Virus record (IMG/VR): IMGVR_UViG_3300030104_000268
Span: 1-55,186 of that record
Reading direction: 5' to 3' (one strand)
Length of the DNA stretch: 55,186 bases
Origin: a virus
Lineage: Duplodnaviria > Caudoviricetes
The notes under the pieces are model-generated. The model was not told the DNA's origin. It did not search any database and saw only the letters and a list, made by a program, of their open reading frames with translations. Below, one piece after another: positions 1-42,471 of the stretch; position 1 is the first letter of the stretch, and each line of letters starts with the position of its first letter. Position numbers and translations under genes: made by a program.

Positions 1-77
1 CTACTTGTGCTAGTTCAGGCATATTATTTTCTCCTTATGTTGGGGCCAGCTATTACACTGGGTAGCCTTATTATTTT
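1..77. repeat. Exact 77-bp repeat of 54816-54892 (contig-end overlap)
   Basis: Base-by-base identity, with divergence at 78/54893. Confidence 0.95.
42..67 (-). promoter_or_regulatory. Scaffold-gene leader hairpin (duplicate of 54857-54882)
   Basis: GG-CUAC-CCAG-loop-CUGG-CC-CC just upstream of the AAGGAG RBS. Confidence 0.5.
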
Positions 78-3000
78 CTTTGCATTAAACCGCCTTTGTT
101 ACGTCCTCCAGAAGGCCCTGTATATCCACCAAAATTACTGGTATCTTCTATACCACCTGTTTTTTCTTTTTGTTTTTCTCTGGCTCCTTCTTGAGCAGCT
201 TTTACTTCTGGACTTTGTGATCTTAATGTCTCTGTTTTTCTTCTCTCATCTTGCATTTGTTGTAGCATTTTTTGTGATTCAGATGGTCCATCATCACCAC
301 TATCTTTAGTAGTAGTGGCTTTAGTAGCTGTGGCATCACTATTCATCCAAGCATTTAATTCTTTCCTAGTTGTTGTGCCATCATCATCAATATCAGCAAC
401 ACCTCTAGCACCCCTAGTTCTAAGTGTCCCTGATGCTAAGGTAGATACTAATTTAGGGTCAAGATTATTATCTTCTGCATATTTATCAACTCTACCCTTT
501 AATTTATTATAAGTATCATCATCTATCTTACCAGCAGCTTTTGCTAACTCAATAGACGAAAATGCTTTAGAAACATTACCTAGTTTGTCTATACCCTCTA
601 CAAGACTTATAACTGGAGTTTTTAAGCCAAATATACCTGAAGATTTTGGTTCTGTTAATATACTATCTACATAACCAGACACGTTATTAAAGTCTACTTC
701 TTTATACCAAGGATCTTTTGGTTCAGGTGTAAATCCACTACCACTATCACTACCACCACCTCCACTTGTAGGTTGTTGTATTGGTTTTGGTGCTGTTGTT
801 TTATAACCTTGAGATATTAATTGATCATATCTTTCTTGATCTTGTGGTAATATTAAATTTACAACTTCACCATTAGGTCCATAAAGTGTTGTTGGTTTTT
901 GGGGTTGTGGTGTTATAGACCCTGGACCTGTAGCTTCCCAACTAAATCCTGTACCTATATTAGGCATAAAAGGACTACCACCTAAAGACATACCCTGTGG
1001 TTGTTGATACATAGACTTTTGTTGTTGATAGGGATCTGCCATTTGAACCACACCACCGTTAGCCATCCTTTGTAACTCTTGCATTTCTTCACCACTAAGA
1101 GGTCCACCCATAGCCATTTGTTTTGGTGCTGGTGGCATTGGAGCCTGAGTCATAGGTGGTTGTCCAGCCTTGGGTCCACCTACAGGTACAGGTTCTCCAC
1201 CTATACGTCCATCACGTTCCATCTGACCAAGACCACCCTTAGCTTTGTTACGTAAATCCTCAAAGTGTTTTACTCCATAGTATTGTACTACATCAGCAGG
1301 AACTACATACTCACCCTCTGATAACTGTGCAGGTATATCATCTCTTACTTCTTTAGCCATAGAACCAGGTGGTATTTGATTACCTGACACAGGGTCTACC
1401 TTCATACCATCATCCTTCAGACCACCCTGTTGCATGAAAGCCATTTGCATTTGTCTGTTCATTGTTACCCCACCCTCGTTAAATATTCTTAGTTTACCAT
1501 CTTTTGTTCTTACTGCCATTTCTTTTAAATCAGAAATAGTAGCAGTTTTAACATTTTTTGCTAAAACAAGAGGACCAACTTGTATCATCTCATCAGCATC
1601 AAATACAATTTTTCCTGTTTTCTTACCATAGAATTGACTTCCTCTGTAGGGATTCATTCCTACTTGTGTCCATTCTTTTGAACCAGACTCTATAATAGAT
1701 GCAGCCATTTCCTGTAGTTCGTAAGGATCTTCTGGGACGTACTCACCAACAGCACGAGCTATTGTAGATTTACCAAAAGGTTTTTCTTCACCAGTTTTTT
1801 TAACTAGTATTTTACCTCTAGCAATATCTAAAGCTTCTTTTGATTGAGATCCAAACCTAACATTCTTTAGTCTTATTGCTTGTCCATACCCTAAAACAGA
1901 CCCTTTTAAATTTATTTTTTCTTTAGTGCCACCATCGTGTATAGACACAACCCACTTATCATACTTGTTATAGGCAGGAATATCTAAACGTGTTCCTAAT
2001 AATTGACCTTTTTTTAAATCAAAACCTTTTACACCAAGTATACCATAGTCTTTTGCTTTTTTACCCATTGACCCTGTTACATCAGTTACAGTAGGCATCA
2101 TGTTTCGTACTTCATCAGCAGTATATTCTTTTGGTGGAGGTATAGCATCACCAACACGTTTACGAGCTTCCTTAGATGTTATATCACCTCTGTATAAAGC
2201 TTCTGCTGCTGCTTCAGAATCTGTAGGATTTTCTTGTCTTTTACCTTTTCCACCCTCTTTTTTTTGCCAAGCCTTTAATGCGTCAGGATCATCAATAAGT
2301 CTTTCTGCTTCTTTTACATCTGCAGCTCTATTAAATAATTTTGTATCTGTAGGAGTTTTTTTAAAAGGTTCATCTACAATACCAGAAGCAGTGGATTTTA
2401 ATCTAATATTACCACCCATCATACCTACAGCATTAGGATCAACTTCAACACGTTTGGCTGTATCAAGTGCTTTTCTTGAACCAGCCATAAATGCATCTGC
2501 TGCATCATCAAGTTGGGTTAGACTTCTAGCACCTGCCATACCAGCAAAAGCCTCTGGTATAGAATATAAATCCCTAGCCATACGTTTTTCTAATTGTTCT
2601 GTGGGCATAGCTTGTGATACAGCACCCACAGCATATTTAAAAGCAGTGTCAGCTAAACTTAAACCAGAAAGGCCCATATCTTTAAGGTAGTCTATAGAGC
2701 GTTTATAGGCAGTAAATAAAGCAGGGTCTTCGGGATCTACATCAATCTTACCTGCATCCATAAACCTTTCTTTTGTTTCTTCCCAAGAGTCAGAAGCAAA
2801 GTCTCTAGCAGTAAAATTTTTAGGTTTATTAGTAGTATAGTCATTATCTGCAGAGGGTAACATTAAGGATTGCATCTGTTTTGTTAAACCACCTTTTTGC
2901 ATACCGTAACCTGGTGTGCCTTTTTTCTCATAAAAAAATAAAGGGTTTTCGTCTTTTACGCCTTCCCAAGGTTTACTGTCTCTGGTTATTCTTCTTACTG

Positions 3001-3811
3001 AAAGAACATTTTCTAAATCAAAATTTTTAATAGAGACTGCACCTTCTGTAAACTCACCCTCTGATGAGCGTTCAATAGTAGCACCCATACCACCTTGATT
3101 ACCACCAAGCATTTTAATTTCATCCTTACGACTAGGAAAACCACCTGCCCTGTCACCAGGATAAAAACCTACATGATCTCCTATCCCATGACCAGGTGTT
3201 CCAGGTGGATCAAAATCAAGAACAATTAAATCACCCTCTTTAATATCACTAAGTTCTATTGCTTCTCCATAGTTTACATATTCTCTAGCTCTTACTCTTG
3301 CGTAAGATTCTTCAGAACCTAATTTAACACCTGGATTTAATCTATCAGCACCAATTTTAGTTAGTGTAGCATCTACAAACGCAGCACACCAAGCTATATC
3401 TCTAGGATCATAATCTTCTCTACCTACTGCATTTTTAAAAAAACCTATTATAGCATCTCTATGCTCTTTAATATTTTCATCTAAATTTAACCCTGGTATT
3501 TGTATACCAGTGTTCCCAATCATTTTACCTCTAGTAAGCATATTAGCGTAAAGAACTGCTTGAATAGGATTTTCTGTTTGATTTACGTCCTCAATATAAT
3601 CTTCTGCTTTTTGTAAAAGAAGATCTGTTGGTGTAGCTATATCTCTACGTATTTGAGGAGACATAATTGGTTGACCATCATCAGTCTTATCCCTACCAGT
3701 AACCATAGCTGCCATTTGATCAGAAAGTTTAGCAACGGGTTTACCAATAGGAACTACATCATCAGGTTTAATCTTTGGCCTTAAACTTTCATCTACTGCT
3801 GTTTTAACCAT
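71..3811 (-). CDS. Large modular internal virion/ejection protein: N-terminal TIGR02594/NlpC-P60-CHAP-like peptidoglycan hydrolase, central 'RLDIPAY..NPY' domain, 'DDIPAQLSEGEYVV' domain, eight xxGG motifs
   Basis: AWCAAFV...GDHVGFY...LGGNQ Cys/His motif; lies between portal and scaffold in circular order; low-complexity P/Q linkers. Confidence 0.7.
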   Translation of the reverse strand: MVKTAVDESLRPKIKPDDVVPIGKPVAKLSDQMAAMVTGRDKTDDGQPIMSPQIRRDIATPTDLLLQKAEDYIEDVNQTENPIQAVLYANMLTRGKMIGNTGIQIPGLNLDENIKEHRDAIIGFFKNAVGREDYDPRDIAWCAAFVDATLTKIGADRLNPGVKLGSEESYARVRAREYVNYGEAIELSDIKEGDLIVLDFDPPGTPGHGIGDHVGFYPGDRAGGFPSRKDEIKMLGGNQGGMGATIERSSEGEFTEGAVSIKNFDLENVLSVRRITRDSKPWEGVKDENPLFFYEKKGTPGYGMQKGGLTKQMQSLMLPSADNDYTTNKPKNFTARDFASDSWEETKERFMDAGKIDVDPEDPALFTAYKRSIDYLKDMGLSGLSLADTAFKYAVGAVSQAMPTEQLEKRMARDLYSIPEAFAGMAGARSLTQLDDAADAFMAGSRKALDTAKRVEVDPNAVGMMGGNIRLKSTASGIVDEPFKKTPTDTKLFNRAADVKEAERLIDDPDALKAWQKKEGGKGKRQENPTDSEAAAEALYRGDITSKEARKRVGDAIPPPKEYTADEVRNMMPTVTDVTGSMGKKAKDYGILGVKGFDLKKGQLLGTRLDIPAYNKYDKWVVSIHDGGTKEKINLKGSVLGYGQAIRLKNVRFGSQSKEALDIARGKILVKKTGEEKPFGKSTIARAVGEYVPEDPYELQEMAASIIESGSKEWTQVGMNPYRGSQFYGKKTGKIVFDADEMIQVGPLVLAKNVKTATISDLKEMAVRTKDGKLRIFNEGGVTMNRQMQMAFMQQGGLKDDGMKVDPVSGNQIPPGSMAKEVRDDIPAQLSEGEYVVPADVVQYYGVKHFEDLRNKAKGGLGQMERDGRIGGEPVPVGGPKAGQPPMTQAPMPPAPKQMAMGGPLSGEEMQELQRMANGGVVQMADPYQQQKSMYQQPQGMSLGGSPFMPNIGTGFSWEATGPGSITPQPQKPTTLYGPNGEVVNLILPQDQERYDQLISQGYKTTAPKPIQQPTSGGGGSDSGSGFTPEPKDPWYKEVDFNNVSGYVDSILTEPKSSGIFGLKTPVISLVEGIDKLGNVSKAFSSIELAKAAGKIDDDTYNKLKGRVDKYAEDNNLDPKLVSTLASGTLRTRGARGVADIDDDGTTTRKELNAWMNSDATATKATTTKDSGDDGPSESQKMLQQMQDERRKTETLRSQSPEVKAAQEGAREKQKEKTGGIEDTSNFGGYTGPSGGRNKGGLMQRK
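307..364. repeat. 58-bp exact repeat of 55128-55185
   Basis: tagtagtagtggctttagtagc...atttaattcttt is identical at both places. Confidence 0.9.
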
Positions 3812-4013
3812 TTACTTTGTCTCTTAATCTTACTAAAGAACGTAAGGCACGTATCTCACCCTGTAGTCTAAACATCTCATCTGGTTCTCTAGACTGTTCC
3901 AGTGCAATCTGTGACATTATTATACGTTCACCTATCTCTTCTAGAAACGGATTGTATAACTCTGGATTATTTACAAAAGGTTTAAGTGTATTATTCACGA
4001 CTAGTTTCATCAC
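3804..4013 (-). CDS. Small conserved portal-adjacent protein
   Basis: 69-aa helical ORF overlapping the portal stop and the next start; RLQGEIRAL segment. Confidence 0.65.
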   Translation of the reverse strand: MMKLVVNNTLKPFVNNPELYNPFLEEIGERIIMSQIALEQSREPDEMFRLQGEIRALRSLVRLRDKVNG

Positions 4014-6112
4014 TGTATTGGTTGCTCATTGCCTGAGAAGCCCTGTTCTCCTGGCTGAGGGGCTGTTCCTGTTCCTATAGTACCTCCCCCACTACCTTGC
4101 GTATCCTGCACTCCTGCGCCAGCAGGTGGCTTCTGTGGAGATGGTGGCTGGTTTACACCCTGTTGGGGTGATGGTGGATCAGGGTTTGCTTCCTTAAACT
4201 TCTTGAGTATCTCTGCCTGTATTGCAGCCTCAGTCATATTATTACCCACTTTGTCAGGATCAAGGTCCATAGACTTAGCAATCTCACGAACTACATAATC
4301 CATTCTAAAAAATGGTGCTAGTGTTGGATTCTGTCCTATTTGCAAGAATTGCATCAGGCGTTGGCTACGTACTTCATTAGCCATTAGACTTTCTGTACCA
4401 CGGGCCTTAATCTCTAAGTCACCCTTAATCTCTTGGTCAAAGTCAAACTGCATGTTAAAATTAAAAAATGCTTTACCCAGTGGTGCTAGTAGGTAGTCAT
4501 CTATATTTTTTACAACATTGCGGATAGAACCATTAGCAGCAGACATAAGCATAGAGATACCAGAAGCAGTACGCCCCACACCACTGACGCCAGTTTGACC
4601 ATGTGCAAAACTTGGAAATCCCGTACTTTCATCTGCTAACACCCTTGCCTTATCAAACATCTGCATGTTTTCACTACTTACATTAGGAAACTTTGTACCA
4701 AAAATGGCTTGACCTGGAGCACCACCCTGTCTCCTAAATATCTTACCAGGATATACGGATAAGTCTTGTCCAGGGACTAGGTTAGTTTCATCTACCTCAA
4801 TTAACAAGTTGCCTGACAGTGCAGCATTATCCACTGCCATACGCATAAACCCATTCATCAAAGTCTGTGTGTCATCCATGTTTTCAGCAATACCCACACC
4901 AAAGATACTGTAAGGATTCATCTCATAAGGGGCGGCAAAATAAGGAATGTAAGCAGGAGTAAAAGGATTCATTACCAAACGTAGCACCTGACCATTACAT
5001 GTCCAGACATTTACACTTAGTTGCTCTGTATCCCGTAACTCTTTTGGTATTTCTATGTCTTGTTCTTCCAGTATCTCAGTATCAACAAAACCCCAAAACT
5101 CCAATACCTCAAACCGTTCTGATTTAGATTCCTGTGCATCATCCTCCATAGCTTGTTCCCACCACTCTTTTGTGTAGGACTCGCCTAAAGACAAGGCATT
5201 ATCTATTGTATTTTTTCTAAAGTATGGTCTGTTTTTTAATGCACGTAGTTGAGAACGAGACATTTTGTGGCGTTCCACAATATACTCTGCCTCTTCCATT
5301 GTAGCTGCATCAGGGTCAGGGTAGAAGTTCCAAATAGAAACGCTAGTAGTTTGTGGTATTGTTTTAAATACTGGAGAGTAATTACCCTCCTCATCCCAGT
5401 TAGGATACTCTTTATCCACGGCAAACGGACCCTTCATAATCCCAGTGCCAAACAAGGCTGACTCAAATGCTGCAGCCCTCATGTGTTTCTTTGCATGGGA
5501 CTCTTCTAACTGATCATGTATCTTTTTCTCCATCTTCTTTGCTGCAACTTCTGCAGGATAGAACTGTGGAGATGTTGGTGTTTTAGCATAGCCAGGTTCT
5601 AACTTATCCATTACAGGTTCTAAGTTATCTCTTAGAGCACCAAGACGTTCCTGAAACTCTGGGTATGTTTCGCCAGGAAGTAACTCAGGCATACCCTCTT
5701 TTGCTTTTGTTTGTTCTGGATTAGTTTCAAAGTTTACAACTTCCTCCACACCTTCAGGAAGTCTGGTTGGATCAATGCTAATAGGAAACTTATTACCACC
5801 AAAAAGTACATCCGCTATCTGACCATAAGCAGCAAGAACTTTTGTTTTAGTTATCTTAACAAATACCTGAGACTTTTCTGTAGAAGTAAACTGTACATCT
5901 GGTCCGTATATACCACGATAGTTTCTATAGGCTTGTATCCAACGGTGTTCCTCTGTCTCTCTTGCATTTTCTGCTTTTTCAAATCTTTCTTTTACAAAAC
6001 CTACGATTTGACCAGCTTTAGGGTCAGAATATTCTTCTTCTTTAACATCCTCTATAGAAGAAGTTTCCTCCATATCCATAAGCATATCTTCTGTGTCAAA
6101 TTCTTCTGCCAT
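4010..6112 (-). CDS. Portal (head-tail connector) protein
   Basis: ~700 aa directly downstream of TerL; P22-like portal features (FYPDP, GRTASGISML); start moved to the ATG at 6112 with RBS. Confidence 0.88.
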   Translation of the reverse strand: MAEEFDTEDMLMDMEETSSIEDVKEEEYSDPKAGQIVGFVKERFEKAENARETEEHRWIQAYRNYRGIYGPDVQFTSTEKSQVFVKITKTKVLAAYGQIADVLFGGNKFPISIDPTRLPEGVEEVVNFETNPEQTKAKEGMPELLPGETYPEFQERLGALRDNLEPVMDKLEPGYAKTPTSPQFYPAEVAAKKMEKKIHDQLEESHAKKHMRAAAFESALFGTGIMKGPFAVDKEYPNWDEEGNYSPVFKTIPQTTSVSIWNFYPDPDAATMEEAEYIVERHKMSRSQLRALKNRPYFRKNTIDNALSLGESYTKEWWEQAMEDDAQESKSERFEVLEFWGFVDTEILEEQDIEIPKELRDTEQLSVNVWTCNGQVLRLVMNPFTPAYIPYFAAPYEMNPYSIFGVGIAENMDDTQTLMNGFMRMAVDNAALSGNLLIEVDETNLVPGQDLSVYPGKIFRRQGGAPGQAIFGTKFPNVSSENMQMFDKARVLADESTGFPSFAHGQTGVSGVGRTASGISMLMSAANGSIRNVVKNIDDYLLAPLGKAFFNFNMQFDFDQEIKGDLEIKARGTESLMANEVRSQRLMQFLQIGQNPTLAPFFRMDYVVREIAKSMDLDPDKVGNNMTEAAIQAEILKKFKEANPDPPSPQQGVNQPPSPQKPPAGAGVQDTQGSGGGTIGTGTAPQPGEQGFSGNEQPIQ

Positions 6113-6246
6113 TAGTTTTCCTTCCAAGGCTCATTATTAAAGTCATTTTCTTGTTGACATCTAGGACAAAACTGATATTTTTCCGTGTTATAACTTGTTT
6201 CACATTTAAAACAAGTTTTTTGTATTTTAGTAACCAAATCTTGCAT
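6112..6246 (-). CDS. 44-aa zinc-ribbon microprotein (not in ORF track)
   Basis: Hand translation MQDLVTKIQKTCFKCETSYNTEKYQFCPRCQQENDFNNEPWKEN; CxxC-x11-CxxC; TAATG overlap with the portal start. Confidence 0.6.
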   Translation of the reverse strand: MQDLVTKIQKTCFKCETSYNTEKYQFCPRCQQENDFNNEPWKEN

Positions 6247-7774: not shown

Positions 7775-8054
7775 GGTTTACCCTTTCATTCAAAGCTACG
7801 TAACTAATATCTCTCCCCGACTGTGTAGTTAACCAGTTTGCAACATCCCTGTAGCTATATTTTTTTAGGTGTTGTTTGGCTTGTTCATATAACTCTAACT
7901 CAGATGGTATTGGTAGTAGTATATCCTCATCTTTAGGATCTTGCTTATAACCAAACGGTACAACTCTACCAACTCTAACGACAGGATACCAGGTTCTTTT
8001 TCCTTCTATAAAGTCTGGTCTAGGTAGTCTCCAAGTTTTCTGTACCTTACTCAT
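7638..8054 (-). CDS. Putative DNA-binding protein with a recombinase-domain-like PFGY motif
   Basis: VVPFGYK followed by helical SYRDVANWL; sits between TerS and TerL. Confidence 0.5.
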   Translation of the reverse strand: MSKVQKTWRLPRPDFIEGKRTWYPVVRVGRVVPFGYKQDPKDEDILLPIPSELELYEQAKQHLKKYSYRDVANWLTTQSGRDISYVALNERVNRESRFKRDLANQRYYAQRYKEASSKAQKIEETIKRIQGSSDKGIY

Positions 8055-8412
8055 CTTCTTTCTCTGGTAAGATAAATAAAGGATTTGTTGCCTTAACTTC
8101 TACCTTATCAGTCTTAACAAATCCTGCCCTGTCTAATAAATCTTTTGCAGCAACAATCTTTTCTTTGTTACCTAAGTCTGTAGGATTATGCATTACCTCA
8201 GACATTGCCCATGCTGCCTTTGATCCACTGGATGCAATAAACTTTTTAGTAAGTTCTGAAATTTCTTCCTGCAGAGGCCCAGTTATTTGTGTAGAAGATG
8301 TATTAGGAGCATATCCAGCAGCCTTCATAGCAGCTACTGGATTGCCCTTGCACTCTTCCGTAAACAAAACATCTAAAAACTTTTGTTGTTTTTCTGTAAG
8401 ATTATGTGCCAT
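8047..8412 (-). CDS. terS: Terminase small subunit
   Basis: N-terminal LTEKQQKF...AAMKAAGY HTH-like motif, AAKDLLDRAG; upstream of TerL. Confidence 0.7.
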   Translation of the reverse strand: MAHNLTEKQQKFLDVLFTEECKGNPVAAMKAAGYAPNTSSTQITGPLQEEISELTKKFIASSGSKAAWAMSEVMHNPTDLGNKEKIVAAKDLLDRAGFVKTDKVEVKATNPLFILPEKEDE

Positions 8413-9512: not shown

Positions 9513-10073
9513 TTAAAAACCTTTACCATCTTTAAAGTTCATATTTCTTAATTTTCCAGCCATTGCTGCTACTTTAGTAGCTGGTAAACCTAAAGCCCTT
9601 CTTTCTGATTTAGACATATTTGCCCATTGACTACGAGTTATTTTTTTCATAACTGCCGCACCCCTCAGTCTGGAAGGAGACTTAGGATCAGTTTGTCGTT
9701 GAAGAAGTTCTTTTGCCCCATCTCCACGACCACCTGATTTCTTTTTAATAGTCTCCTTAAGTGTTTTATCAGAACCAGGTAGTAACTTTTCTACAGTAAT
9801 TTTTGGTTGGTTTAAATCTCCAGGTTTAGCAACATCTGATTTTTTCTTTGGTCTTGCTTTAGGACGAATAGATTTACTAGGGGCTAAAGACTTTTTAAGA
9901 TCTTCTGCAAAAACAGCAGCCATAACTTTACCATTCTTGTCAGTGTAGTAAAGTGATCCTGCTTTCTTAGCAGCAGAAATACTTTTGTATTTACCAGCGT
10001 TCTTTTTTGCTTGTTTTACAGTCATGCCCTTTGCTTTTAATTTAGCATTAAGATATTCACGTAGTGTAGCCAT
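9513..10073 (-). CDS. Lys-rich basic protein
   Basis: 186 aa, very high K/R content; stop-start coupled to the upstream gene. Confidence 0.65.
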   Translation of the reverse strand: MATLREYLNAKLKAKGMTVKQAKKNAGKYKSISAAKKAGSLYYTDKNGKVMAAVFAEDLKKSLAPSKSIRPKARPKKKSDVAKPGDLNQPKITVEKLLPGSDKTLKETIKKKSGGRGDGAKELLQRQTDPKSPSRLRGAAVMKKITRSQWANMSKSERRALGLPATKVAAMAGKLRNMNFKDGKGF

Positions 10074-10438
10074 TACTTCATTCCTTTCTTCATACCACCC
10101 ATAGCACCACCCTTAGCCATACCTTTTGACTTACCTGTGGCTTTTTTAATGCCAGTGTTCATTGTACCTTGTGATTTAACCATGCCACCTACATTGTAGG
10201 TCATAACCTTACCACCCTTGGCGTATGCTTTCTTCTTCATGCCACCCTTAGCCATGCCTTTAGACATTCCACCTTTTGCCATACCTTTAGCCATACCGCC
10301 TTTGTTCATTTTACCTTTACCATCAGCAGCATAGAATGGAACTTTCTTTCCATCCTTCTCAACCATTTTAAGACCACCAGCAGCATATCCTTTTTTCATA
10401 CCGCCTTTAGCCATTCCTTTATTCTTCATTTTTTTCAT
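10073..10438 (-). CDS. Basic Met/Lys/Gly-rich protein built from MAKGG repeats
   Basis: Eight [MY][AN]xGG units in 121 aa; overlaps both neighbours. Confidence 0.75.
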   Translation of the reverse strand: MKKMKNKGMAKGGMKKGYAAGGLKMVEKDGKKVPFYAADGKGKMNKGGMAKGMAKGGMSKGMAKGGMKKKAYAKGGKVMTYNVGGMVKSQGTMNTGIKKATGKSKGMAKGGAMGGMKKGMK

Positions 10439-11719: not shown

Positions 11720-11796
11720 GGTAACATCCAAATTACAAAACAAGTTAGACATGCCCACATTACAATCCACATAAAATAATCTTTAACCCATTTCAT
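11716..11796 (-). CDS. 26-aa hydrophobic membrane peptide (not in ORF track)
   Basis: MKWVKDYFMWIVMWACLTCFVIWMLP; ATGA overlaps at both ends. Confidence 0.5.
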   Translation of the reverse strand: MKWVKDYFMWIVMWACLTCFVIWMLP

Positions 11797-12068
11797 TTCT
11801 TTTTACCTTTTGCTAAACCGCCTCTGGAGGATCTAAAGGGTTTGGTTTTCTTTGCAACACCTTTAGGCTGAGGTACATGCTGCTTACCTGCCTTCGTGCC
11901 TTTTCGTTTAGCTCTGGTTGTAGCGGCATACTCACTGCTGCTAAGAGACTTAATAGCCTTATCAGGTAGATAACGCTCACCAGTCTTAGCACTAGGTTTC
12001 CCACTCTTAGTCCTCCATTTTTGTTTACTCCAATCCTTTAGACTCTTCTGTGATTTCTTTAGTGCCAT
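11793..12068 (-). CDS. Basic protein, C-terminal half of a DUF5872-like family
   Basis: KSLKDWSKQKWRT...ERYLPDKA...KQHV motifs. Confidence 0.6.
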   Translation of the reverse strand: MALKKSQKSLKDWSKQKWRTKSGKPSAKTGERYLPDKAIKSLSSSEYAATTRAKRKGTKAGKQHVPQPKGVAKKTKPFRSSRGGLAKGKKK

Positions 12069-12694: not shown

Positions 12695-13147
12695 TCAAAT
12701 CAATTCAAAGTGTGGTGCATCAATAAATGGTCTACGTCCCTGTGACCTACGAAGGTCTATGTATGCGTTCATAGCATCCTCTGCAGTACCCTGATACATC
12801 CTAATATCCCCTTCACTCCAGGCTGCTCCCCATTTAATAGCCACAGAATTTCTTCTAGCAGCCTCCGCAAAGGCATCACAAATATCATCATAAATATTTA
12901 ACTCCCACGAAATATCAGAACCAAAGTATGCTACAACGTCTACGGCTCTACCATCAAGATGTTTAGATTTCATAGTCTGTGATCTGCCAGCTTCGTACAA
13001 CTCTTTCTGCTGTTCTAAGGTACGTAGTCCATACGTAACTCCAAAGTCCACCGTAGTCAGTTTGATAGCTTCTGAAACTACATTAACCAGACCTTCATCC
13101 ACACCCTCTAGTTTCTTTAGGCTTCTTGAGCTTAATTTAAATGCCAT
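12695..13147 (-). CDS. Endolysin, peptidase M15 (L-Ala-D-Glu peptidase)
   Basis: GLRTLEQQ, SKHLDGRAVD and DAPHFE zinc-peptidase motifs; near the holin. Confidence 0.9.
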   Translation of the reverse strand: MAFKLSSRSLKKLEGVDEGLVNVVSEAIKLTTVDFGVTYGLRTLEQQKELYEAGRSQTMKSKHLDGRAVDVVAYFGSDISWELNIYDDICDAFAEAARRNSVAIKWGAAWSEGDIRMYQGTAEDAMNAYIDLRRSQGRRPFIDAPHFELI

Positions 13148-13479
13148 TACTTCTTTTTCCTTTTTGCAGGTTTCTTTTTAGGCATGGCCTTTACAGGTAC
13201 AGCCCCAACAGATATAACTATTGCCATACCCTTCTTACCTCTTTTAGGTGCAGGTTTTTTCTTTTTTCTTTTAACAACTCCACCATTATTAAAGTCACTT
13301 CTTACTCTTCCACTTGGCATAGCAACCTCCAAATCATTAGATGCCATTTTTGAAGTTATTCTAGAGTTTAAAACTTCTGCTCCTAAAGATTTAATACCAG
13401 ACCTAAGCTGTGTATTTGTAAGTTTACCTCTACTCCACATATCAATTATATCATCTATTTGCATTATTAAACTTGGCAT
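13147..13479 (-). CDS. Hypothetical protein with FNNGG motif and basic C-tail
   Basis: 110 aa; Lys-rich after FNNGG. Confidence 0.6.
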   Translation of the reverse strand: MPSLIMQIDDIIDMWSRGKLTNTQLRSGIKSLGAEVLNSRITSKMASNDLEVAMPSGRVRSDFNNGGVVKRKKKKPAPKRGKKGMAIVISVGAVPVKAMPKKKPAKRKKK

Positions 13480-15985: not shown

Positions 15986-15986
15986 A

Positions 15987-27050: not shown

Positions 27051-27064
27051 AAAAGGAGAATAAC

Positions 27065-27580: not shown

Positions 27581-27590
27581 GTGCAAACTA

Positions 27591-27623: not shown

Positions 27624-27636
27624 AATAGGATAAAAT

Positions 27637-28989: not shown

Positions 28990-29011
28990 AGTTAGAATAA
29001 AGGATTGACTA

Positions 29012-29399: not shown

Positions 29400-29460
29400 G
29401 AAAATAGAGAATTGGGATAAAGTGGATTTACAAATGATAGATAGTAGAACGGGGAGAACA

Positions 29461-31365: not shown

Positions 31366-31368
31366 TAA

Positions 31369-31857: not shown

Positions 31858-31858
31858 T

Positions 31859-38415: not shown

Positions 38416-41400
38416 TTACAAGTCTATAATTTTTAAGAACACTTCAGACAAAAAGTTACCAGTGCTTTGTGTTGCCTCTATTTTGGCCTGAAGTTCTGCT
38501 GCTGTTAGTGTTGCCTCTGCAGCCATTTGCTGTAATATAATTGATGTTGCATTATCCGCATTACTCTCAGCAGTTTGAAAGGCTAACGACATAATGTCTC
38601 TTTCTCTTTGCCATACAGCATCTATATTTTTAGATGTCATTGCGTTCATTGTCTTAGCAAAATCTCTGTTACTTTCATTCTGTGTAGCAGTATTAATAGT
38701 AGAAAGGTTTTGTCTCCACTGTGCATTAGCCTGTGCTACTACCAAACCATTGTTAGCATTAAACTGATCCCTCTGATTTTGTAGATTAGAATTAAACTGA
38801 CGAACAGAGTTTACTGCATTAACATTAGCTTGATTAACAGCGTTTGTTTGTGTTGCATTAAACTGTGAAGTCTGTGATGCCAGTGATGCAAAGAACTGAT
38901 TAGTTTGATTCTCACTGGTAGCATTAAACTGTGATGCAGCATTAGTAGCAGCCTGATCAGTAAAGAGTGCTTGTACATTTTGTTGTGCTTTAAATAGTGC
39001 AGTTTGCTGCTCATTACCTAAGTTAGCCATGTCCATCTGCAGGAACGCTTGTGCATTTTGCACTGCAGCCTGTTGCCTGTTATTTAAATTAGCCATATCA
39101 AGGTTAGCTATTGCTGCAACTTCTGCCATTACCATAGCCTGTTTATTTGTTAGGTTAGCCATGTTCATAGTATTTACTGCACGAGAGTTTTCCATTGCTA
39201 TATTTTGCTCTGCAGTAAAGTTCATATTAGCAACATCACCAATACGTGCAGAGTTTTGTACTCTGGATTGAAACTCTTGGTCAAACTCTTGTCCCATAAA
39301 CTGAGCACGTTGTTGTGCAGCAAGCATAGCACGTTGTTGACGATTTGACAAGTTTTGTGATTCAAATTGTGCAACAGTTTGTGCGTCAGCCTGTGCAATA
39401 GGTAGTGCAGACTCCATTGCTGCTTGCACCATAGCTTGACCAGCCATACTACTTGCACCTAATCCCCTTGCAGCCATTGCAGCACTTACTGCCCTCATTG
39501 CACCAGAAGCCCAAGGGGGAGTATTGCCCCCCTCAAAGTCCTGCATCAGCCCTTCTAGCTGACCCTGTACGGTAGCCATCTTAGTTGGAGTAGCCTCTGC
39601 AGCCTGTACTTGTTCCGTAAACTTAGCGGCCTTCTCTGCATCAGCAGCACCACTAATAAGTTCACCCTCTTGTATCTCACGTTGTACAGGGTTTTCCATA
39701 ATATTAGCAGCACCTTGGGCAGACTGCATACCAGACACAGAGGATTCAGTCTGTTGTGCTGCACCTACTTGTGCTTCATCACTAACTTTACCTGTAGCTG
39801 CTGTTGTTCCCTCTACTGCCTTTCCCACTGCTTTAGCAGCAGATGTTGCACCATAAGTAGCTGTATCTGCTACACCAGGAGTTGTTGCTGTTTCTACTGT
39901 TCCTACAGTTGCTGCATCTGCATATGGAGCTGTGCCACTAACCTGACCAGCACCAGAACCTATGTCTTGATCTGCAGTGGGTGATATATAAGATACTGGT
40001 GCTTGTATAGGTTGCATGGTTTGTTTTACCACATCCTGAAACATTGGCACTATTTCTTCTTGATATTTTATACCACTTGGATCATCAGTGGTTTCTCCTC
40101 CCTCTTGATAACCAGTAACCATACCACCTCTATTCATACTACCTTTTCTAGGAAAAGGTCCAGCCTTTAGTTTTTTTATATCAAAAGGAACAGAGTAATC
40201 AAAAGAACCCGTAGTTTCATTACCCATTGGATCATACTTTAATCCAACTTCAAAATTATTACCATATATTGGATCTTTACCTTTTATAAAAAATTTACCT
40301 TGATAAAGACCAAACTTTGTATTCTTAGATTCTTCAACTATTTTATTAGGTACAATAATTTTACTTCCTACCTGATCATAAGATAAATTTTGACTATCTA
40401 ACTCTGTCTTAAAAGCATCTACCCAAGGATTATTCACATCAAAGATAGACTTTTGACTATCCCCTTCACCAAGAACAGAGCCTTTGTCATCAGTGTAAGT
40501 ATACTCTATACCTTTTTCTTTCATACGGTTAGAAGTACGTTGCCTTTCTGTTCTGTTACTAGGTGTGTCAGAGTATTGTAAGGGTTTAGTTTGAGTAGTT
40601 GGAGTAGACTTTGCAAATGCCTGTTGCGTTTGTTGTGATTGAGATGACCTATCATCTCTATTTCTTGGTGTAGCTACAGGAGTACCCATGGAGAGTTGAG
40701 TAGTAGCCTGTGGTGGAGGGGTAGAAACACTAGGTTGTTGTGTTCTACCTCTCTCTACACCTGCTGCAGGTTGTGATCTAGGGGCAGGACTAGCTGCAGG
40801 TGCTCCCCTACCTGTTTCAGCAGGTCCACCAGTATAACCACCATAGGCCATACCAGTCATGGCCTTTTCATACTGACCCATACGAGAAGCAGCACCAGAG
40901 TTTGACTGGTAGAAGTTATCCAAGGCAGTTCTAGACTTCTCGCCAGTATACCCAAGAAACTTCTTAGCTAAATCATTCTCTGCATCTAGTGATATAAACC
41001 CACCTGCAGACATGGATCTAACATAACCTGGTGGTACATAGGTAATAGGTTGACCATTTTTAAGAGTAACAGGCATCTGTTGTCCTCTTTCATTACGGTA
41101 TGTTACAGTCTGAACACCACTATCTCCAACACCTAACTCAGGTGGTTGAAAAGTAGAACCTGGTTGATACCCACCACCAAATGTAGGCACAGAACCTAGA
41201 CCAACTGTGGATACGGGTTTAGCAACTGTAGCACTAACTGGTGTATAGTCTGTAACTGGTGGAGGTGCAGCAGCAGTAGCAAGTCCCGTATCAGTTGTAG
41301 TAGGTGCAGTTGTGGTAACTGGTGCTGTTTCTACTGGTGTGGTAGTAGTTGGTGTTGGATCATAACCAGTTGTAACTGGTTGACTAAATGCCTCTTCTGT

Positions 41401-42471
41401 TTGAGTCTGAGTTGCTTCTGGTACTGTAACCTCTGGAGCAGGTGTAGTGTCAGCATAGGTAACTACTTCTTCTTGTGTAGGTTGTTGACTATCTATATAA
41501 TCTTGCACTGCTTGCCTATCAGGAGATCTAAAAACAGCACTCTTTGGAACTGCCATAGGAGAAGATGCTCTTTGTATTTGATTACCACCACGCATTACGT
41601 AAAAAGTTTCTACTTGTGGAACTAAAAATGTAGGATCATCAGGTTTACCTGCATCTGGTTGCTGTTCTTGTTCACCACCAAGGTTTAACTGTGTATCCCT
41701 GTAGTCAAATACAGCCTGTTGATCAAAGCCAGAGTTTACTGCACTCTCATTTAAGAAAGAACTAGAGAAACCAGTCTGTTCATAAGAGGAGTCTAGTGTA
41801 GGATTGTCAACTGTAAATGTTCTACCATCATCCAGTAGGAATGTTTTTGGGTCAGACCTGTAACCTGCCTCTTCCATTTGAGCAGACTTAGCATTTACTA
41901 AATTATATGCATCTTCAAGTCTTTGTCCACCTAAAGCACTAGCACCCATAGCCAAGTTTATATTTGATATATCATTAAGTTTTATTTGACCATCATTATC
42001 CAAGTCATACAGTGCTAAATCTTCAGCAGACATATTTGCTGTTTTTCCACTATCAAGTTGATTTGGTATTAAGTTACCATCCGTATCTCGTTGACCATAC
42101 TTTTCAAAAAAATCATTGCCCCAATTAGCTAGGTTAAAACTAGCATCACCACCAAGATTAGTATCAGTTCTGTCAGGCAAGGGTATACTTGGACCATCAT
42201 CTACTGGTGGTTCTTCTGCTGGTGGTGGTGCTTCTTCAGCAGGTGGTCCATAAGCTGCACCAGGTTCAAATAATCCTAATTCCCTAGCTTTATTTTGGGC
42301 AGTAGCCATTTGATTTTTCATATCTCTCTGAGTTTCTTTGTCAAAGTTGTACTTTTCAAACACAGTACCATCAATCAAAGACTTCTCAAATGCAAGTTGA
42401 TTTCTAAAATCTGTTAAATCTTTCTTGTCAATATTAAAAGATTTACCGTATGCGTCAGTTACTTGTGGCAT
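38416..42471 (-). CDS. Large internal virion/ejection protein with P/T-rich N-half, four xxGG motifs and a Q/N/A-rich coiled-coil C-half
   Basis: 1351 aa; AQF/NQF heptad-like region; EF-hand-like DLDNDGQI. Confidence 0.65.
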   Translation of the reverse strand: MPQVTDAYGKSFNIDKKDLTDFRNQLAFEKSLIDGTVFEKYNFDKETQRDMKNQMATAQNKARELGLFEPGAAYGPPAEEAPPPAEEPPVDDGPSIPLPDRTDTNLGGDASFNLANWGNDFFEKYGQRDTDGNLIPNQLDSGKTANMSAEDLALYDLDNDGQIKLNDISNINLAMGASALGGQRLEDAYNLVNAKSAQMEEAGYRSDPKTFLLDDGRTFTVDNPTLDSSYEQTGFSSSFLNESAVNSGFDQQAVFDYRDTQLNLGGEQEQQPDAGKPDDPTFLVPQVETFYVMRGGNQIQRASSPMAVPKSAVFRSPDRQAVQDYIDSQQPTQEEVVTYADTTPAPEVTVPEATQTQTEEAFSQPVTTGYDPTPTTTTPVETAPVTTTAPTTTDTGLATAAAPPPVTDYTPVSATVAKPVSTVGLGSVPTFGGGYQPGSTFQPPELGVGDSGVQTVTYRNERGQQMPVTLKNGQPITYVPPGYVRSMSAGGFISLDAENDLAKKFLGYTGEKSRTALDNFYQSNSGAASRMGQYEKAMTGMAYGGYTGGPAETGRGAPAASPAPRSQPAAGVERGRTQQPSVSTPPPQATTQLSMGTPVATPRNRDDRSSQSQQTQQAFAKSTPTTQTKPLQYSDTPSNRTERQRTSNRMKEKGIEYTYTDDKGSVLGEGDSQKSIFDVNNPWVDAFKTELDSQNLSYDQVGSKIIVPNKIVEESKNTKFGLYQGKFFIKGKDPIYGNNFEVGLKYDPMGNETTGSFDYSVPFDIKKLKAGPFPRKGSMNRGGMVTGYQEGGETTDDPSGIKYQEEIVPMFQDVVKQTMQPIQAPVSYISPTADQDIGSGAGQVSGTAPYADAATVGTVETATTPGVADTATYGATSAAKAVGKAVEGTTAATGKVSDEAQVGAAQQTESSVSGMQSAQGAANIMENPVQREIQEGELISGAADAEKAAKFTEQVQAAEATPTKMATVQGQLEGLMQDFEGGNTPPWASGAMRAVSAAMAARGLGASSMAGQAMVQAAMESALPIAQADAQTVAQFESQNLSNRQQRAMLAAQQRAQFMGQEFDQEFQSRVQNSARIGDVANMNFTAEQNIAMENSRAVNTMNMANLTNKQAMVMAEVAAIANLDMANLNNRQQAAVQNAQAFLQMDMANLGNEQQTALFKAQQNVQALFTDQAATNAASQFNATSENQTNQFFASLASQTSQFNATQTNAVNQANVNAVNSVRQFNSNLQNQRDQFNANNGLVVAQANAQWRQNLSTINTATQNESNRDFAKTMNAMTSKNIDAVWQRERDIMSLAFQTAESNADNATSIILQQMAAEATLTAAELQAKIEATQSTGNFLSEVFLKIIDL

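What the first reader, a model, noticed from the sequence alone, without database searches (positions are those of the whole stretch)
71..42471. A shared [MFY]-[ANQS]-x-G-G motif across late proteins: candidate virion cargo-tagging or processing system
Seen: about 20 strict matches by eye, all in - arm proteins. The 1246-aa protein has MQKGG (2888-2902), FNEGG (1469-1483), MQQGG (1421-1435), MAMGG (1103-1117), MANGG (1052-1066) and MSLGG (977-991), plus near-matches KAKGG and RNKGG. The 1351-aa protein has MSAGG (40999-41013), MAYGG (40837-40851), MNRGG (40123-40137) and YQEGG (40096-40110). There are eight copies in the 121-aa protein, FNNGG in 13147-13479 and FNKGG in the alternative C-terminus. 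I found no strict match in the replication proteins, MCP, portal or fibre. The motifs lie in linkers between domains and are usually followed by a hydrophobic residue. Established: adenovirus protease cleaves core proteins at (M/I/L)xGG and ASFV pS273R cleaves polyproteins at GG-X; FAxGG followed by a D.IPA.LS.GE.V domain is familiar from phage tape-measure proteins. Inference: unrelated proteins carry one short tag, either a cleavage site that cuts polyproteins into delivered modules or a docking signal for packaging into the head.
Basis: partly seen in the sequence, partly recalled or inferred. Interest (0 to 1): 0.85.

Follow-up and report, generated by a model that had tools for sequence, protein, structure and literature searches.

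The report
Glycine joint motif on injection proteins
A short peptide built around two glycines really does recur in a handful of proteins of this marine short-tailed phage; it belongs to a module also found in the tape-measure proteins of long-tailed phages such as lambda, and most likely marks joints where injected proteins dock or are cut.

Summary
All 20 strict [MFY][ANQS]xGG matches lie at the stated coordinates, against 2.65 expected from shuffles. The motif is conserved in homologues of the same few families and absent from portal, terminase, coat and scaffold. It is not a general late-protein tag.

The window is a complete HMO-2011-type marine podovirus genome. In the 1246-aa protein encoded beside the portal, copies flank a conserved core (DDIPAQLSEGEYVV...). 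That core is homologous to lambda tape-measure protein gpH residues about 745-778 (hhalign 98.3%). Lambda shows the same layout: FATGG, core, YATGG, then MRDGG twelve residues from the end. That last lambda copy is ordered in the tail tip beside gpI. In T5, the tape-measure protein is cut exactly in front of AEGGMM.

In this lineage the motif also forms 9-residue arrays and basic C-terminal tails on small proteins with unrelated N-terminal domains.

My best reading (0.4) is a joint and docking element of mostly disordered DNA-injection proteins. A cutting site (0.25) remains open. Docking to the capsid is disfavoured, because tape-measure proteins never meet the head shell. No protease gene was found, and function is untested.

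The parts
71..3811 (-). Gene for the 1246-aa tape-measure-like injection protein, encoded between the portal and the scaffold. It carries six strict motif copies plus the conserved core.
   Evidence: The family holds 180 motifs against 10.8 expected, and 56 of 57 homologous ORFs have at least one. phrog_3547 (tape measure) E 7.5e-8.
3071..3469 (-). NlpC/P60-like (TIGR02594-type) cell-wall hydrolase domain, residues 115-247. It is present in only some homologues.
   Evidence: phrog_21825 endolysin E 1.1e-5. TIGR02594 E 4.3e-5, below the curated cut-off. tblastn hits to tape-measure proteins of Caulobacter phages over residues 116-274. Homologues of 438-762 aa are too short to hold it.
2888..2902 (-). 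Motif copy MQKGG (residue 304).
1469..1483 (-). Motif copy FNEGG, 47 residues upstream of the core. This position is conserved.
   Evidence: 36 of 41 homologues have a copy 28-54 residues upstream of the core (my count from the table).
1421..1435 (-). Motif copy MQQGG, 31 residues upstream of the core. This position is conserved, and the GG is invariant or nearly so in alignment A1.
1223..1348 (-). Conserved core VRDDIPAQLSEGEYVVPADVVQYYGVKHFEDLRNKAKGGLGQ, homologous to lambda gpH residues about 745-778.
   Evidence: Invariant columns in A1. hhalign of A1 against A2: 98.3%, E 1.2e-14, 34 columns. 2991 protein clusters at E <= 1e-3.
977..1117 (-). Three downstream copies: MAMGG (1103-1117), MANGG (1052-1066) and MSLGG (977-991). 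MANGG follows a conserved helix of the type LSxEEMxxIQxM.
   Evidence: 33 of 41 homologues have a copy 58-127 residues downstream of the core (my count).
74..103 (-). C-terminal tail RNKGGLMQRK. It is a near-match to the motif and ends in basic residues.
   Evidence: The tail pattern occurs in 22 of 41 distinct family C-termini.
54886..55167 (-). Diverged second copy of the 1246-aa C-terminus, created by the contig wrapping round. It ends ...GGGFNKGGLMQRKKVNKK, with FNKGG at 54919-54933.
38416..42471 (-). Gene for the 1351-aa protein, which lies in the block syntenic with the SU10 ejection proteins. Copies: MSAGG 40999-41013, MAYGG 40837-40851, MNRGG 40123-40137, YQEGG 40096-40110.
   Evidence: 75 distinct homologues hold 119 motifs against 8.8 expected, and 59 of 75 have at least one. 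Copies are conserved at residue 52 and as a pair or triple just before the conserved C-terminal domain. Synteny with SU10 gp20-24.
10073..10438 (-). Gene for the 121-aa, very basic protein made of about ten 9-residue units (G-[MY]-A-K-G-G-M-K-K), with eight strict copies.
   Evidence: Family: 72 motifs against 1.9 expected, 13 of 13. 775 relatives at E <= 1e-3, none named. AlphaFold2 mean pLDDT 55.8, no repeat fold.
11793..12068 (-). Gene for the 91-aa basic protein, whose C-terminal tail FRSSRGGLAKGKKK is a near-match. Homologues carry strict copies or longer arrays.
   Evidence: Family: 13 motifs against 1.0 expected, 12 of 41.
9513..10073 (-). Gene for the 186-aa basic protein directly after the 121-aa gene. 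Homologues are fused to motif arrays (for example L035:696-1304).
13147..13479 (-). Gene for the 110-aa protein with FNNGG (13279-13293), followed by a polybasic stretch. It lies directly upstream of the endolysin gene.

Best explanation
The peptide G-[F/M/Y]-[A/N]-x-G-G-[L/M/V/Y]-[V/A] is a joint and docking element of DNA-injection proteins.

Its home is a module shared with the tape-measure proteins of long-tailed phages. One copy sits just before a conserved core (P-A-x-hydrophobic-x-x-G-E-aromatic-V-V...A-x-V-x-x-Y-G...L). One sits just after the core, and one lies about 12 residues before the C-terminus. The hydrophobic residue ends a helix or strand, the two glycines make the turn, and the next hydrophobic pair is free to pack on a partner.

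Such joints hold long, mostly unfolded injection proteins in place inside the virion's channel or core and let them go at ejection. In this phage those proteins are the portal-adjacent 1246-aa protein and the 1351-aa protein.

In this phage lineage the element has multiplied. It has also been appended, as arrays and as basic C-terminal tails, to small basic proteins, which would thereby be tethered to the same assembly and injected with it.

Shown: enrichment, conservation of positions, homology of the core with lambda gpH, and order of the last lambda copy in the tail tip.

Inferred: that the motif itself makes the contacts, that these proteins are virion components, and that the small proteins ride along.
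For: Specificity and conservation (motifs observed against expected):
- 1246-aa family: 180 against 10.8
- 121-aa family: 72 against 1.9
- 91-aa family: 13 against 1.0
- portal: 1 against 9.8
- large terminase: 0 against 3.9
- coat: 0 against 2.1
The 1351-aa family holds 119 against 8.8.

Positions are fixed relative to the core. 36 of 41 homologues have a copy 28-54 residues upstream, and 33 of 41 have one 58-127 residues downstream. A tail copy is present in 22 of 41 distinct C-termini.

A glycine at -1, which was not part of the search pattern, is enriched in all four families (34-70%).

The same layout occurs in tape-measure proteins of Burkholderia phiE125, Gordonia Clawz, Mycobacterium MrMagoo and lambda gpH (FATGG 733, core, YATGG 778, MRDGG 842 of 853). 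hhalign gives 98.3%, E 1.2e-14.

Lambda structures: gpH 818-842 is a three-helix coiled coil resting on the gpI tripod, and the model runs to residue 849. The helix therefore ends at the motif's hydrophobic residue, and GG-LFS follows in ordered density (PMC10721106 and PMC12617516, passages; PDB 9E7M chain = residues 818-849).

AlphaFold2 models of the module (pLDDT 61) and of the 121-aa protein (pLDDT 55.8) are mostly coil. In the module model, two of five copies sit at helix ends. This is as expected for segments that fold only on a partner.

The motif is fused to unrelated small domains: DUF6496, DUF6321, the 91-aa type, the 186-aa type and a CxxCxGxG zinc ribbon.

The motif and the core occur together. 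Neither is present in Pelagibacter phage HTVC033P or in SU10, and both are present in CRP-9 and HMO-2011.
Against: There is no direct evidence that any of these proteins is in the virion. No virion proteomics of an HMO-2011-type phage turned up in the passages I searched.

In lambda, the part of gpH that holds the first two copies and the core (residues 690-817) is unresolved. Its function is called unknown (PMC12617516 passages).

I did not see residue-level contacts of MRDGGLFS with gpI.

SU10, whose portal and adaptor families match this phage, has five proven ejection proteins with 0 strict motifs. The motif is therefore not needed for ejection proteins as such.

The 9-residue arrays leave no room for helices, so helix capping cannot be the whole story.

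Enrichment in single tape-measure proteins is modest. Lambda has 3 against 0.16 expected, with 1 of 1000 shuffles reaching it. For phiE125, Clawz and MrMagoo, 161, 53 and 23 of 1000 shuffles reach the observed count.
Confidence: 0.4

Rival explanations
1. Processing site. A protease, probably of the host, cuts the injection proteins at the motif, between the hydrophobic residue and the [A/N]-x-G-G. This releases modules such as the core-bearing fragment and the basic C-terminal tail.
For: T5 pb2 is cut after R1127 (PMC10038345 passages). In the sequence this reads ...NSFVPR|AEGGMMYPGVSYQMGEHGTEVV, which is directly in front of a near-match, and it leaves the 92-residue pb2C.

[quoted passage not shown] A cut before ATGG (after F733) would give 79.8 + 12.5 kDa. 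The reported values are about 78 and about 14 kDa.

Copies lie at module boundaries.

An earlier finding of this scan, e1-6000541, made the same link.
Against: This rests on one mapped site. Its position 0 is Arg, not hydrophobic, which would also fit an ordinary trypsin-like cut in an exposed linker.

No trans-acting protease gene is present in the window.

The NlpC/P60-like domain is missing from short homologues that keep the motif.

Eight copies at 9-residue spacing would shred the 121-aa protein into nonapeptides.

No Ser, Thr or Cys follows GG, so self-cleavage by acyl shift is unlikely (inference).

The lambda authors place the cut near residue 710, about 20 residues upstream of FATGG.
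Confidence: 0.25
2. Self-associating 'sticker' in disordered, low-complexity regions. Aromatic or Met residues beside glycines give weak contacts between motif copies, with no dedicated receptor. Acidic motif-bearing regions of the large proteins and basic arrays of the small ones would then condense together, possibly with DNA.
For: The motif is multivalent: 8, 6 and 4 copies per protein. AlphaFold2 predicts disorder. The motif occurs in acidic surroundings in the 1246-aa family and in lysine-rich surroundings in the small proteins. Arrays expand and contract between close relatives.
Against: Positions are fixed relative to a folded or conserved core across very distant phages. That argues for a specific structural role rather than for composition alone. 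Nothing here tests condensation.
Confidence: 0.15
3. Capsid cargo tag. The motif, above all the C-terminal tail, docks proteins to the inside of the coat shell or to the scaffold, so that they are packed into the head. This would resemble T4 capsid-targeting sequences or encapsulin cargo-loading peptides (both recalled).
For: The tag is portable and often C-terminal, and it sits on unrelated small domains. The 1246-aa gene lies between the portal and scaffold genes. SU10-type phages do carry ejection proteins in the head (PMC9509320 passages).
Against: The homologous module with the same flanking copies sits in tape-measure proteins, which assemble into tails without contact with coat or scaffold (established knowledge). 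SU10 ejection proteins lack the motif. Coat and scaffold are present in HTVC033P, which lacks the motif.
Confidence: 0.1
4. Chance or compositional artefact of glycine-rich proteins, inflated because the pattern was defined after looking.
For: The pattern was fitted by eye. Eight of the 20 copies come from one internal repeat. One copy is a duplicate allele created by contig wrap-round.
Against: 0 of 2000 shuffles reach the count even without the repeat protein. The other glycine-rich proteins (tailspike, 798-aa protein) have 12 GG sites each and no match. Independent columns (G at -1, hydrophobic at +5) are also biased. Positions are conserved in hundreds of homologues.
Confidence: 0.01

Closest known systems
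C-terminal region of lambda tape-measure protein gpH (the cleaved fragment gpHC, residues about 710-853)
   Same: The order of elements is the same: hydrophobic-A-x-G-G, then a core with P-A-x-x-x-x-G-E-F/Y-V, then G-Y-A-x-G-G, and a last copy 12 residues from the C-terminus. The core is homologous by profile comparison (98.3%). Most of the region is disordered in the model and unresolved in lambda (PMC12617516 passages).
   Different: The window's protein belongs to a short-tailed phage with an SU10-type portal and adaptor and no tail-tube gene. It is encoded beside the portal. It lacks the Pfam Tape_meas_lam_C domain. It carries more copies and ends in a polybasic tail.
T5 tape-measure protein pb2 and its mapped cut after R1127
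   Same: A near-match, AEGGMM, followed by a G-E...V-V-x-P stretch, starts the C-terminal fragment pb2C. A lytic activity lies in the same protein, as with the NlpC/P60-like domain here.
   Different: The residue before A-E-G-G is Arg. T5 pb2 has no strict copy and only one relaxed copy elsewhere. Its core is of the G-E-x-G-x-E-x-V-x-P kind, not the P-A-x-L-S-x-G-E-Y-V kind.
Ejection proteins gp20-24 of Escherichia phage SU10 (Kuravirus)
   Same: The portal and adaptor match the Pfam SU10 families. Gene order is large terminase, portal, small gene, scaffold, coat, tail genes, then a block of large proteins including a cell-wall hydrolase at the end of the late operon. The 1351-aa gene lies in the corresponding block.
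   Different: BLASTP finds no similarity at E <= 1e-3 between any window protein and the 16 SU10 virion-module proteins compared, and gp20-24 hold 0 strict motifs. SU10 has no gene between its small gp7 and the scaffold, where this phage has the 1246-aa gene.
T4 internal-protein capsid-targeting sequence and encapsulin cargo-loading peptides (recalled, not tested)
   Same: Both are short portable terminal peptides that bring unrelated cargo into a shell built on the HK97 fold.
   Different: No binding to coat or scaffold is shown here. The motif is also internal and repeated, and it occurs in tail proteins of other phages.
Adenovirus protease and ASFV pS273R cleavage sites
   Same: The recognition peptide contains Gly-Gly with a hydrophobic residue upstream.
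   Different: The hydrophobic residue is one position further from GG. No clan CE or other cysteine protease gene was found. The one relevant mapped cut (T5) lies before A-x-G-G, not after G-G.

Membership tests
Lambda-type tape-measure C-terminal module (gpHC-like) | Core segment homologous to gpH residues about 745-778 | tested here: met
   hhalign A1 against A2: 98.3%, E 1.2e-14, 34 columns. The A6 profile finds lambda gpH at E 1.2e-17; lambda is one of the 14 rows of A6, so that match is partly by construction.
Lambda-type tape-measure C-terminal module (gpHC-like) | Hydrophobic-[A/N]-x-G-G copies directly before and after the core, and one near the C-terminus | tested here: met
   Window copies lie at -47, -31, +76 to +118 and in the tail. 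Lambda copies lie at 733, 778 and 842.
Tape-measure protein proper (tail-length ruler) | Encoded with tail-tube, chaperone and hub genes of a long tail, with length proportional to the tail | tested here: not met
   The window has an SU10-type portal and adaptor, a tubular-tail-B-like 798-aa protein and a tailspike. No tail-tube or chaperone family was found. Family lengths range from 438 to 2050 aa within one phage type.
Tape-measure protein proper (tail-length ruler) | Pfam Tape_meas_lam_C or another curated tape-measure domain above its cut-off | tested here: not met
   Pfam gives no such hit at E <= 0.1. Only phrog_3547 at E 7.5e-8.
Virus-encoded GG-specific protease processing system (adenain or pS273R type) | A cysteine protease gene in the genome | tested here: not met
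   51 of 54 ORFs were scanned against at least one of PHROGs, Pfam and NCBIfam. The only peptidase hit is Peptidase_S74 in the tailspike. Small ORFs under 80 aa, and three ORFs of 80-84 aa, were not scanned.
Virus-encoded GG-specific protease processing system (adenain or pS273R type) | Protein ends at the motif in mature virions | not testable with these tools
   This needs virion mass spectrometry.
Capsid-targeting or cargo-loading peptide | Portable terminal peptide on unrelated cargo domains | tested here: met
   Tails and arrays occur on the 91-aa type, the 186-aa type, DUF6496, DUF6321 and zinc-ribbon domains.
Capsid-targeting or cargo-loading peptide | Binding to the shell or scaffold, and presence of the cargo in particles | not testable with these tools
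   No virion proteomics for this phage type turned up in the passages searched. This needs packaging assays.
RTX-like nonapeptide beta-roll | 9-residue GG-containing repeat with a calcium-binding Asp that folds into a beta-roll (consensus recalled) | tested here: not met
   The period of 9 is present, but no Asp is conserved. The AlphaFold2 model of the 121-aa family has mean pLDDT 55.8 and shows no repeat fold.

The most novel reading that the evidence does not exclude
A tag-and-reader loading system for injected proteins. The conserved core (P-A-x-L-S-x-G-E-Y-V-V...) of the tape-measure-like protein would bind the hydrophobic-A-x-G-G tag by strand addition. Its own flanking copies would occupy the site in cis. 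Any small protein carrying the tag would be loaded in trans onto the injection protein and delivered into the host with the DNA. Candidates are the arrays on DUF6496, DUF6321, zinc-ribbon and other domains. Cutting in front of A-x-G-G, as in T5 and possibly lambda, would release the load. If true, the same code would explain the long-unexplained processing of lambda gpH.
Probability: 0.12. Interest if true: 0.85.

Novelty: new variant of a known kind. Interest (0 to 1): 0.6.

Why it matters
HMO-2011-type phages are described as a dominant, broadly distributed marine viral group (PMC9038755, abstract). Their large late proteins are annotated only as hypothetical. This work gives two of those proteins a place as tape-measure-like and ejection-type injection proteins.

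It also shows that a module of lambda gpH, whose function and cleavage the lambda authors still call unknown (PMC12617516 passages), is conserved in short-tailed phages. The module comes with a simple and recognisable flanking peptide.

That turns an old open question into a precise hypothesis that can be tested in lambda itself: where and why are tape-measure proteins cut, and what does the C-terminal fragment do?

If the small tagged proteins are co-injected, the motif would also be a handle for finding proteins that phages deliver into cells.

Tried and rejected
DNA-level cause (internal ribosome-binding sites or DNA repeats): rejected. The GG codons follow genome usage and vary synonymously.

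Beta-roll or solenoid fold of the 9-residue arrays: no support. AlphaFold2 gives pLDDT 55.8.

A free-standing globular 'IPA domain': AlphaFold2 on 33 sequences gives pLDDT 61, mostly coil. I therefore ran no fold search. Sequence and profile searches of the PDB with the window's module found nothing.

Co-folding of coat, scaffold and the 121-aa protein: no verdict. It counts neither for nor against binding.

The NlpC/P60-like domain as the motif's protease: rejected, because short homologues keep the motif without the domain.

The 2OG-Fe(II) oxygenase (43436-44080) as a modifier of the motif: rejected, because none is annotated in CRP-9, CRP-13, CRP-603, CRP-2 or HMO-2011, all of which have the motif.

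The 227-aa protein upstream of the 121-aa gene: no informative family. PHROG labels it 'ferredoxin', and the Atlas label 'Putative PurM' scores only 0.86. I found no link to the motif.

S24/LexA-like serine peptidase reading of the core: I saw a spacing resemblance from memory, but the would-be serine position is Asp in most members, so I dropped it.

Co-occurrence of small YAKGG proteins with the core in other viral contigs: 4 of 5 records hit. However, one is HMO-type, two are the same lineage, and there is no background rate. It is only a lead.

Literature: six full-text searches turned up no description of this motif. The search for the pentapeptide strings listed only primer sequences among the 15 papers shown.

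I could not see supplements of the SU10, lambda, T5 and HMO-2011 papers. These include virion protein tables, T5 figure S5G and the protein-group tables, and they may bear on virion content and cut sites. I did not see the original HMO-2011 paper (Kang et al. 2013).

Full report
**What the window is**

The 55,186-base window is a whole virus record (header). Its genes fall into a + strand replication arm (15930-32137) and a - strand late arm that wraps round the ends.
- Replication arm: primase-helicase, family A DNA polymerase, ThyX, ribonucleotide reductase and an integrase.
- Late arm: small terminase 8047-8412, large terminase 6227-7774, portal 4010-6127, a 68-aa ORF, the 1246-aa gene 71-3811, a scaffold-like gene 53938-54837 and the coat gene 52642-53715.
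- Then an SU10-type adaptor 51093-52037, a 798-aa tubular-tail-B-like protein, a 1534-aa tailspike, and a block with the 1351-aa protein, a lysozyme-domain protein and a 1151-aa protein.

The portal is 57-74% identical to those of the cultured HMO-2011-type phages listed: Roseobacter CRP-1, -2, -3, -9, -13, -207, -212, -235, -345, -603 and -738, and Puniceispirillum HMO-2011. This is a complete HMO-2011-type marine podovirus genome.

The two contig ends overlap. Positions 55128-55185 equal 307-364, and 54816-54940 match 1-110 at 85%. The 93-aa 'alternative C-terminus' is therefore a diverged allele of the end of the 1246-aa gene.

**The observation**

- Shuffling each protein gives 2.65 on average, and none of 2000 shuffles reaches 20. 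Without the 121-aa repeat protein the count is 12 against 2.48.
- Because the pattern was fitted by eye, I also conditioned on GG. In the 1246-aa and 1351-aa proteins, 10 of 31 GG sites have M/F/Y at -3, and all 10 also have A/N/Q/S at -2 (0.86 expected). In all other proteins this holds for 1 of 60 sites (1.45 expected). Fisher p = 5.8e-5.
- The other glycine-rich proteins (tailspike, 798-aa protein) show a quite different GG context.
- Codons for GG follow the genome's usage and vary synonymously, so the signal is in the protein.

**Conservation**

I examined the last 50 kb of five cultured relatives and 80 portal-anchored IMG/VR loci. ORFs of at least 50 aa were assigned to window families by BLASTP at E <= 1e-5. 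ORFs without a hit were not counted, and identical sequences were not removed in this table. Motifs observed against expected:

| Family | Observed | Expected | Members with at least one |
|---|---|---|---|
| 1246-aa | 180 | 10.8 | 56 of 57 |
| 121-aa | 72 | 1.9 | 13 of 13 |
| 91-aa | 13 | 1.0 | 12 of 41 |
| 186-aa | 4 | 0.4 | not counted here |
| Portal | 1 | 9.8 | |
| Large terminase | 0 | 3.9 | |
| Coat | 0 | 2.1 | |
| Scaffold | 0 | 0.2 | |

- A second scan gave 75 distinct 1351-aa homologues with 119 motifs against 8.8 expected, and 59 of 75 have at least one. Copies recur at residue 52 and as a pair or triple, 8-9 residues apart, just before the conserved C-terminal domain.
- In the five cultured genomes, six-frame ORFs of at least 60 aa hold 36 copies on the late strand and 1 on the early strand, the latter in the CRP-9 DNA polymerase.
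- The extended consensus is G-[F/M/Y]-[A/N]-x-G-G-[L/M/V/Y]-[V/A]. The glycine at -1 was not selected for, yet it reaches 34-70% in four families.

**Where the copies sit**

In the 1246-aa family the copies keep their places relative to a nearly invariant core, DPVSGNxIPxGSxAxEVRDDIPAQLSEGEYVVPADVVxYYGVKxFEDLR.
- Of the 41 distinct homologues in which my expression found the core, out of 55 in all, 36 have a copy 28-54 residues upstream. The five without one start within 41 residues of the core.
- 33 of the 41 have a copy 58-127 residues downstream (counts made on the table).
- A further copy lies about 12 residues before the C-terminus in a tail of the type xNKGGLMxKKKK. The tail pattern is present in 22 of 41 distinct C-termini. 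It also occurs in 6 of 34 C-termini of the 91-aa family and 3 of 17 of the 186-aa family. By contrast it occurs in 8 of 2811 unassigned six-frame ORFs and in none of the portal, terminase or scaffold C-termini.
- The two alleles at the window's ends differ over most of their last 90 residues but both end in NKGGLMQRK.

**The link to tape-measure proteins**

- tblastn of the module against 50,697 phage records finds the HMO-2011-type phages strongly. Beyond them it gives weak hits (E 1e-4 to 0.7). Among the 60 rows listed, these fall in tape-measure genes of Burkholderia, Gordonia and Mycobacterium phages and in one Rhizobium phage protein.
- Reading those genes shows the same layout. In phiE125 it reads LATGG, SDSIPAQLSNGEFVV..., LNAGG, FAAGG. 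Clawz and MrMagoo are similar.
- Lambda gpH reads ...KFH-FATGG-FTGTGGKYEPAGIVHRGEFVFTKEATSRIGVGNLYRLMRG-YATGG-YVG...QTQ-MRDGG-LFSGGGR.
- A profile of 33 podovirus modules matches a profile of five such tape-measure segments with probability 98.3% and E 1.2e-14 over 34 columns.
- The module is abundant: 2991 clusters at E <= 1e-3 among 1.84 billion representatives.
- The N-terminal NlpC/P60-like domain also has its nearest cultured relatives in tape-measure proteins, those of Caulobacter phages.
- The 1246-aa protein is thus a tape-measure-like injection protein in a phage that has no long tail.

**What is known about the module elsewhere** (passages only; supplements not seen)

Lambda:
- gpH is cut in the glycine-rich region near its C-terminus into gpH* (roughly residues 1-710) and gpHC.
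- Site, catalyst and the function of gpHC are stated to be unknown.
- Residues 818-849 of gpHC are ordered in the tail tip with gpI, while residues 690-817 are not resolved (PMC12617516).
- Residues 818-842 form a three-helix coiled coil on the gpI tripod (PMC10721106).
- The PDB holds that 32-residue chain (9E7M).
- The helix therefore ends at M842, the hydrophobic residue of the last copy, and R-D-G-G-L-F-S follows in ordered density.

T5:
- pb2 is cut after R1127, and pb2C stays in the tail (PMC10038345).
- In the sequence the cut reads ...NSFVPR|AEGGMMYPGVSYQMGEHGTEVV and leaves 92 residues.

SU10:
- Its portal and adaptor families match this phage.
- It has five ejection proteins in the head, encoded at the end of the late operon (PMC9509320).
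- The 1351-aa gene lies in the corresponding block here.
- The SU10 proteins carry no strict copy and show no BLASTP similarity.

**The small proteins**

- The 121-aa protein is a run of about ten 9-residue units. Its family (775 relatives at E <= 1e-3, none named) keeps the G-G, the aromatic or Met residue and the lysines invariant.
- In related loci the same arrays or tails are joined to different N-terminal domains. These include the 91-aa type, the 186-aa type (for example L035:696-1304) and a double CxxCxGxG zinc ribbon.
- A scan of IMG/VR for G-Y-A-K-G-G-M found more than 120 stretches. In the 80 loci read, the motif is in small proteins (median 111 aa). It is fused to DUF6496 in three of the ten proteins sent to Pfam and to DUF6321 in one. 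It also occurs in tape-measure proteins and in a 294-aa protein directly before a core.
- 22 of the 80 loci share no gene with the window at E <= 1e-10.

**Structure predictions**

AlphaFold2 models of the module (33 sequences, mean pLDDT 61) and of the 121-aa family (58 sequences, mean pLDDT 55.8) are mostly coil. In the module model the helices at residues 23-30 and 144-154 end at motif copies. These are low-confidence models. I use them only to say that no stable fold of the isolated chains is predicted.

**Interpretation**

The motif is a real, specific, portable short linear motif. I rank the readings as follows.

1. A joint and docking element of injection proteins (0.4). The hydrophobic residue closes a helix or strand, GG turns, and the next hydrophobic pair packs on a partner. 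The lambda tail-tip structure gives one worked example. The fixed places at module borders and the disorder of the free chains fit this reading.

2. A processing site (0.25). The T5 cut and the approximate lambda cut lie at the upstream border of the module. A cut after lambda F733 would give 79.8 + 12.5 kDa, against the reported values of about 78 and 14 kDa. However, this rests on one mapped site. Its position 0 is Arg, no trans-acting protease is encoded here, and arrays would be shredded.

3. A self-associating sticker in disordered regions (0.15).

4. A tag for docking to coat or scaffold (0.1). This is disfavoured because the same module works in tails, which never meet the head shell. 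SU10 ejection proteins do without the motif, and HTVC033P keeps coat and scaffold but lacks both motif and core.

5. Chance is excluded.

The motif and the core go together in the few genomes I could test:
- both are present in CRP-9 and HMO-2011;
- neither is present in HTVC033P or SU10;
- the core was found in 4 of 5 partial contigs chosen for a small YAKGG protein, but one of these is HMO-type and two are one lineage.

That pattern is the basis of the boldest reading, that the core reads the tag. I give it 0.12.

**Limits**

- No virion proteomics for this phage type was found in the passages searched.
- I did not see the original HMO-2011 paper or any supplement.
- Three small ORFs of 80-84 aa, and all ORFs under 80 aa, were not scanned for families.
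- The claim that the motif is undescribed rests on six full-text searches.
- Three earlier notes of this scan on other genomes reached similar views. They are not independent evidence.

Noticed in passing
1-364 and 54816-55186: The contig ends overlap by about 370 bases. Identity is 100% at the outer 58 bases and 85% at the inner 110-125 bases, with an unalignable middle. The assembly ran round a circular or terminally redundant genome into a second strain variant. The variable stretch is the C-terminal about 60 residues of the 1246-aa protein.
   Followed up: partly
3804-4010 (-): An unlisted 68-aa ORF lies between the portal and the 1246-aa gene. It starts at the portal's stop codon and overlaps the next start by 8 bases. 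Counterparts of 58-65 aa are annotated in CRP-9, CRP-13, CRP-603, CRP-2 and HMO-2011, and SU10 has a 78-aa gp7 at the same place.
   Followed up: partly
52642-53787 (-): The coat ORF as listed starts at a TTG. Homologues and the PHROG match begin 24 codons later, at the ATG at 53715 (MAFSSASGYGNLPNG...).
   Followed up: yes
43436-44080 (-): A 2OG-Fe(II) oxygenase gene sits inside the late structural operon. HTVC033P has two at a similar place, but the five cultured Roseobacter and SAR116 relatives have none annotated.
   Followed up: partly
44084-48688 (-): The 1534-aa tailspike ends in a Peptidase_S74 intramolecular-chaperone domain (residues 1405-1473). This is the only peptidase-family hit in the genome.
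   Followed up: no
L017:5432-5842, L001:45953-46435 (-), L003:47084-47353 (-): Small basic proteins of related phages carry a double CxxCxGxG zinc ribbon (CPKCKGxGCSHCGGxG) followed by motif copies. The same DnaJ-type motif pair is reported in the DNA polymerase of HMO-2011-type phages (PMC9038755 passages).
   Followed up: no
L180:8423-8782, L236:1362-2564, L191:7-690 (-), L174:3190-3504: In other viral contigs the G-YAKGG-M peptide is fused to DUF6496 or DUF6321 domains. Recurring C-terminal extensions such as ...RADGIAxRGKTRG... and ...CGASxxP... follow the motif in several small proteins.
   Followed up: partly
10435-11118 (-): The 227-aa protein is translationally coupled to the 121-aa gene (4-base overlap). 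It has no Pfam or NCBIfam match. PHROG labels it 'ferredoxin' and the Atlas labels it 'Putative PurM' (score 0.86). Its role is unexplained.
   Followed up: partly
13147-13479 (-): The 110-aa protein directly upstream of the endolysin combines FNNGG, two polybasic runs and a short hydrophobic stretch (GMAIVISVGAVPV). It may be a lysis accessory rather than a virion protein.
   Followed up: no
20217-21104 (+), 19389-19874 (+), 21447-21839 (+): The early arm encodes a tyrosine integrase, an HNH/recombinase-domain protein and a Hydrolase_2 cell-wall hydrolase. The phage may be temperate.
   Followed up: no
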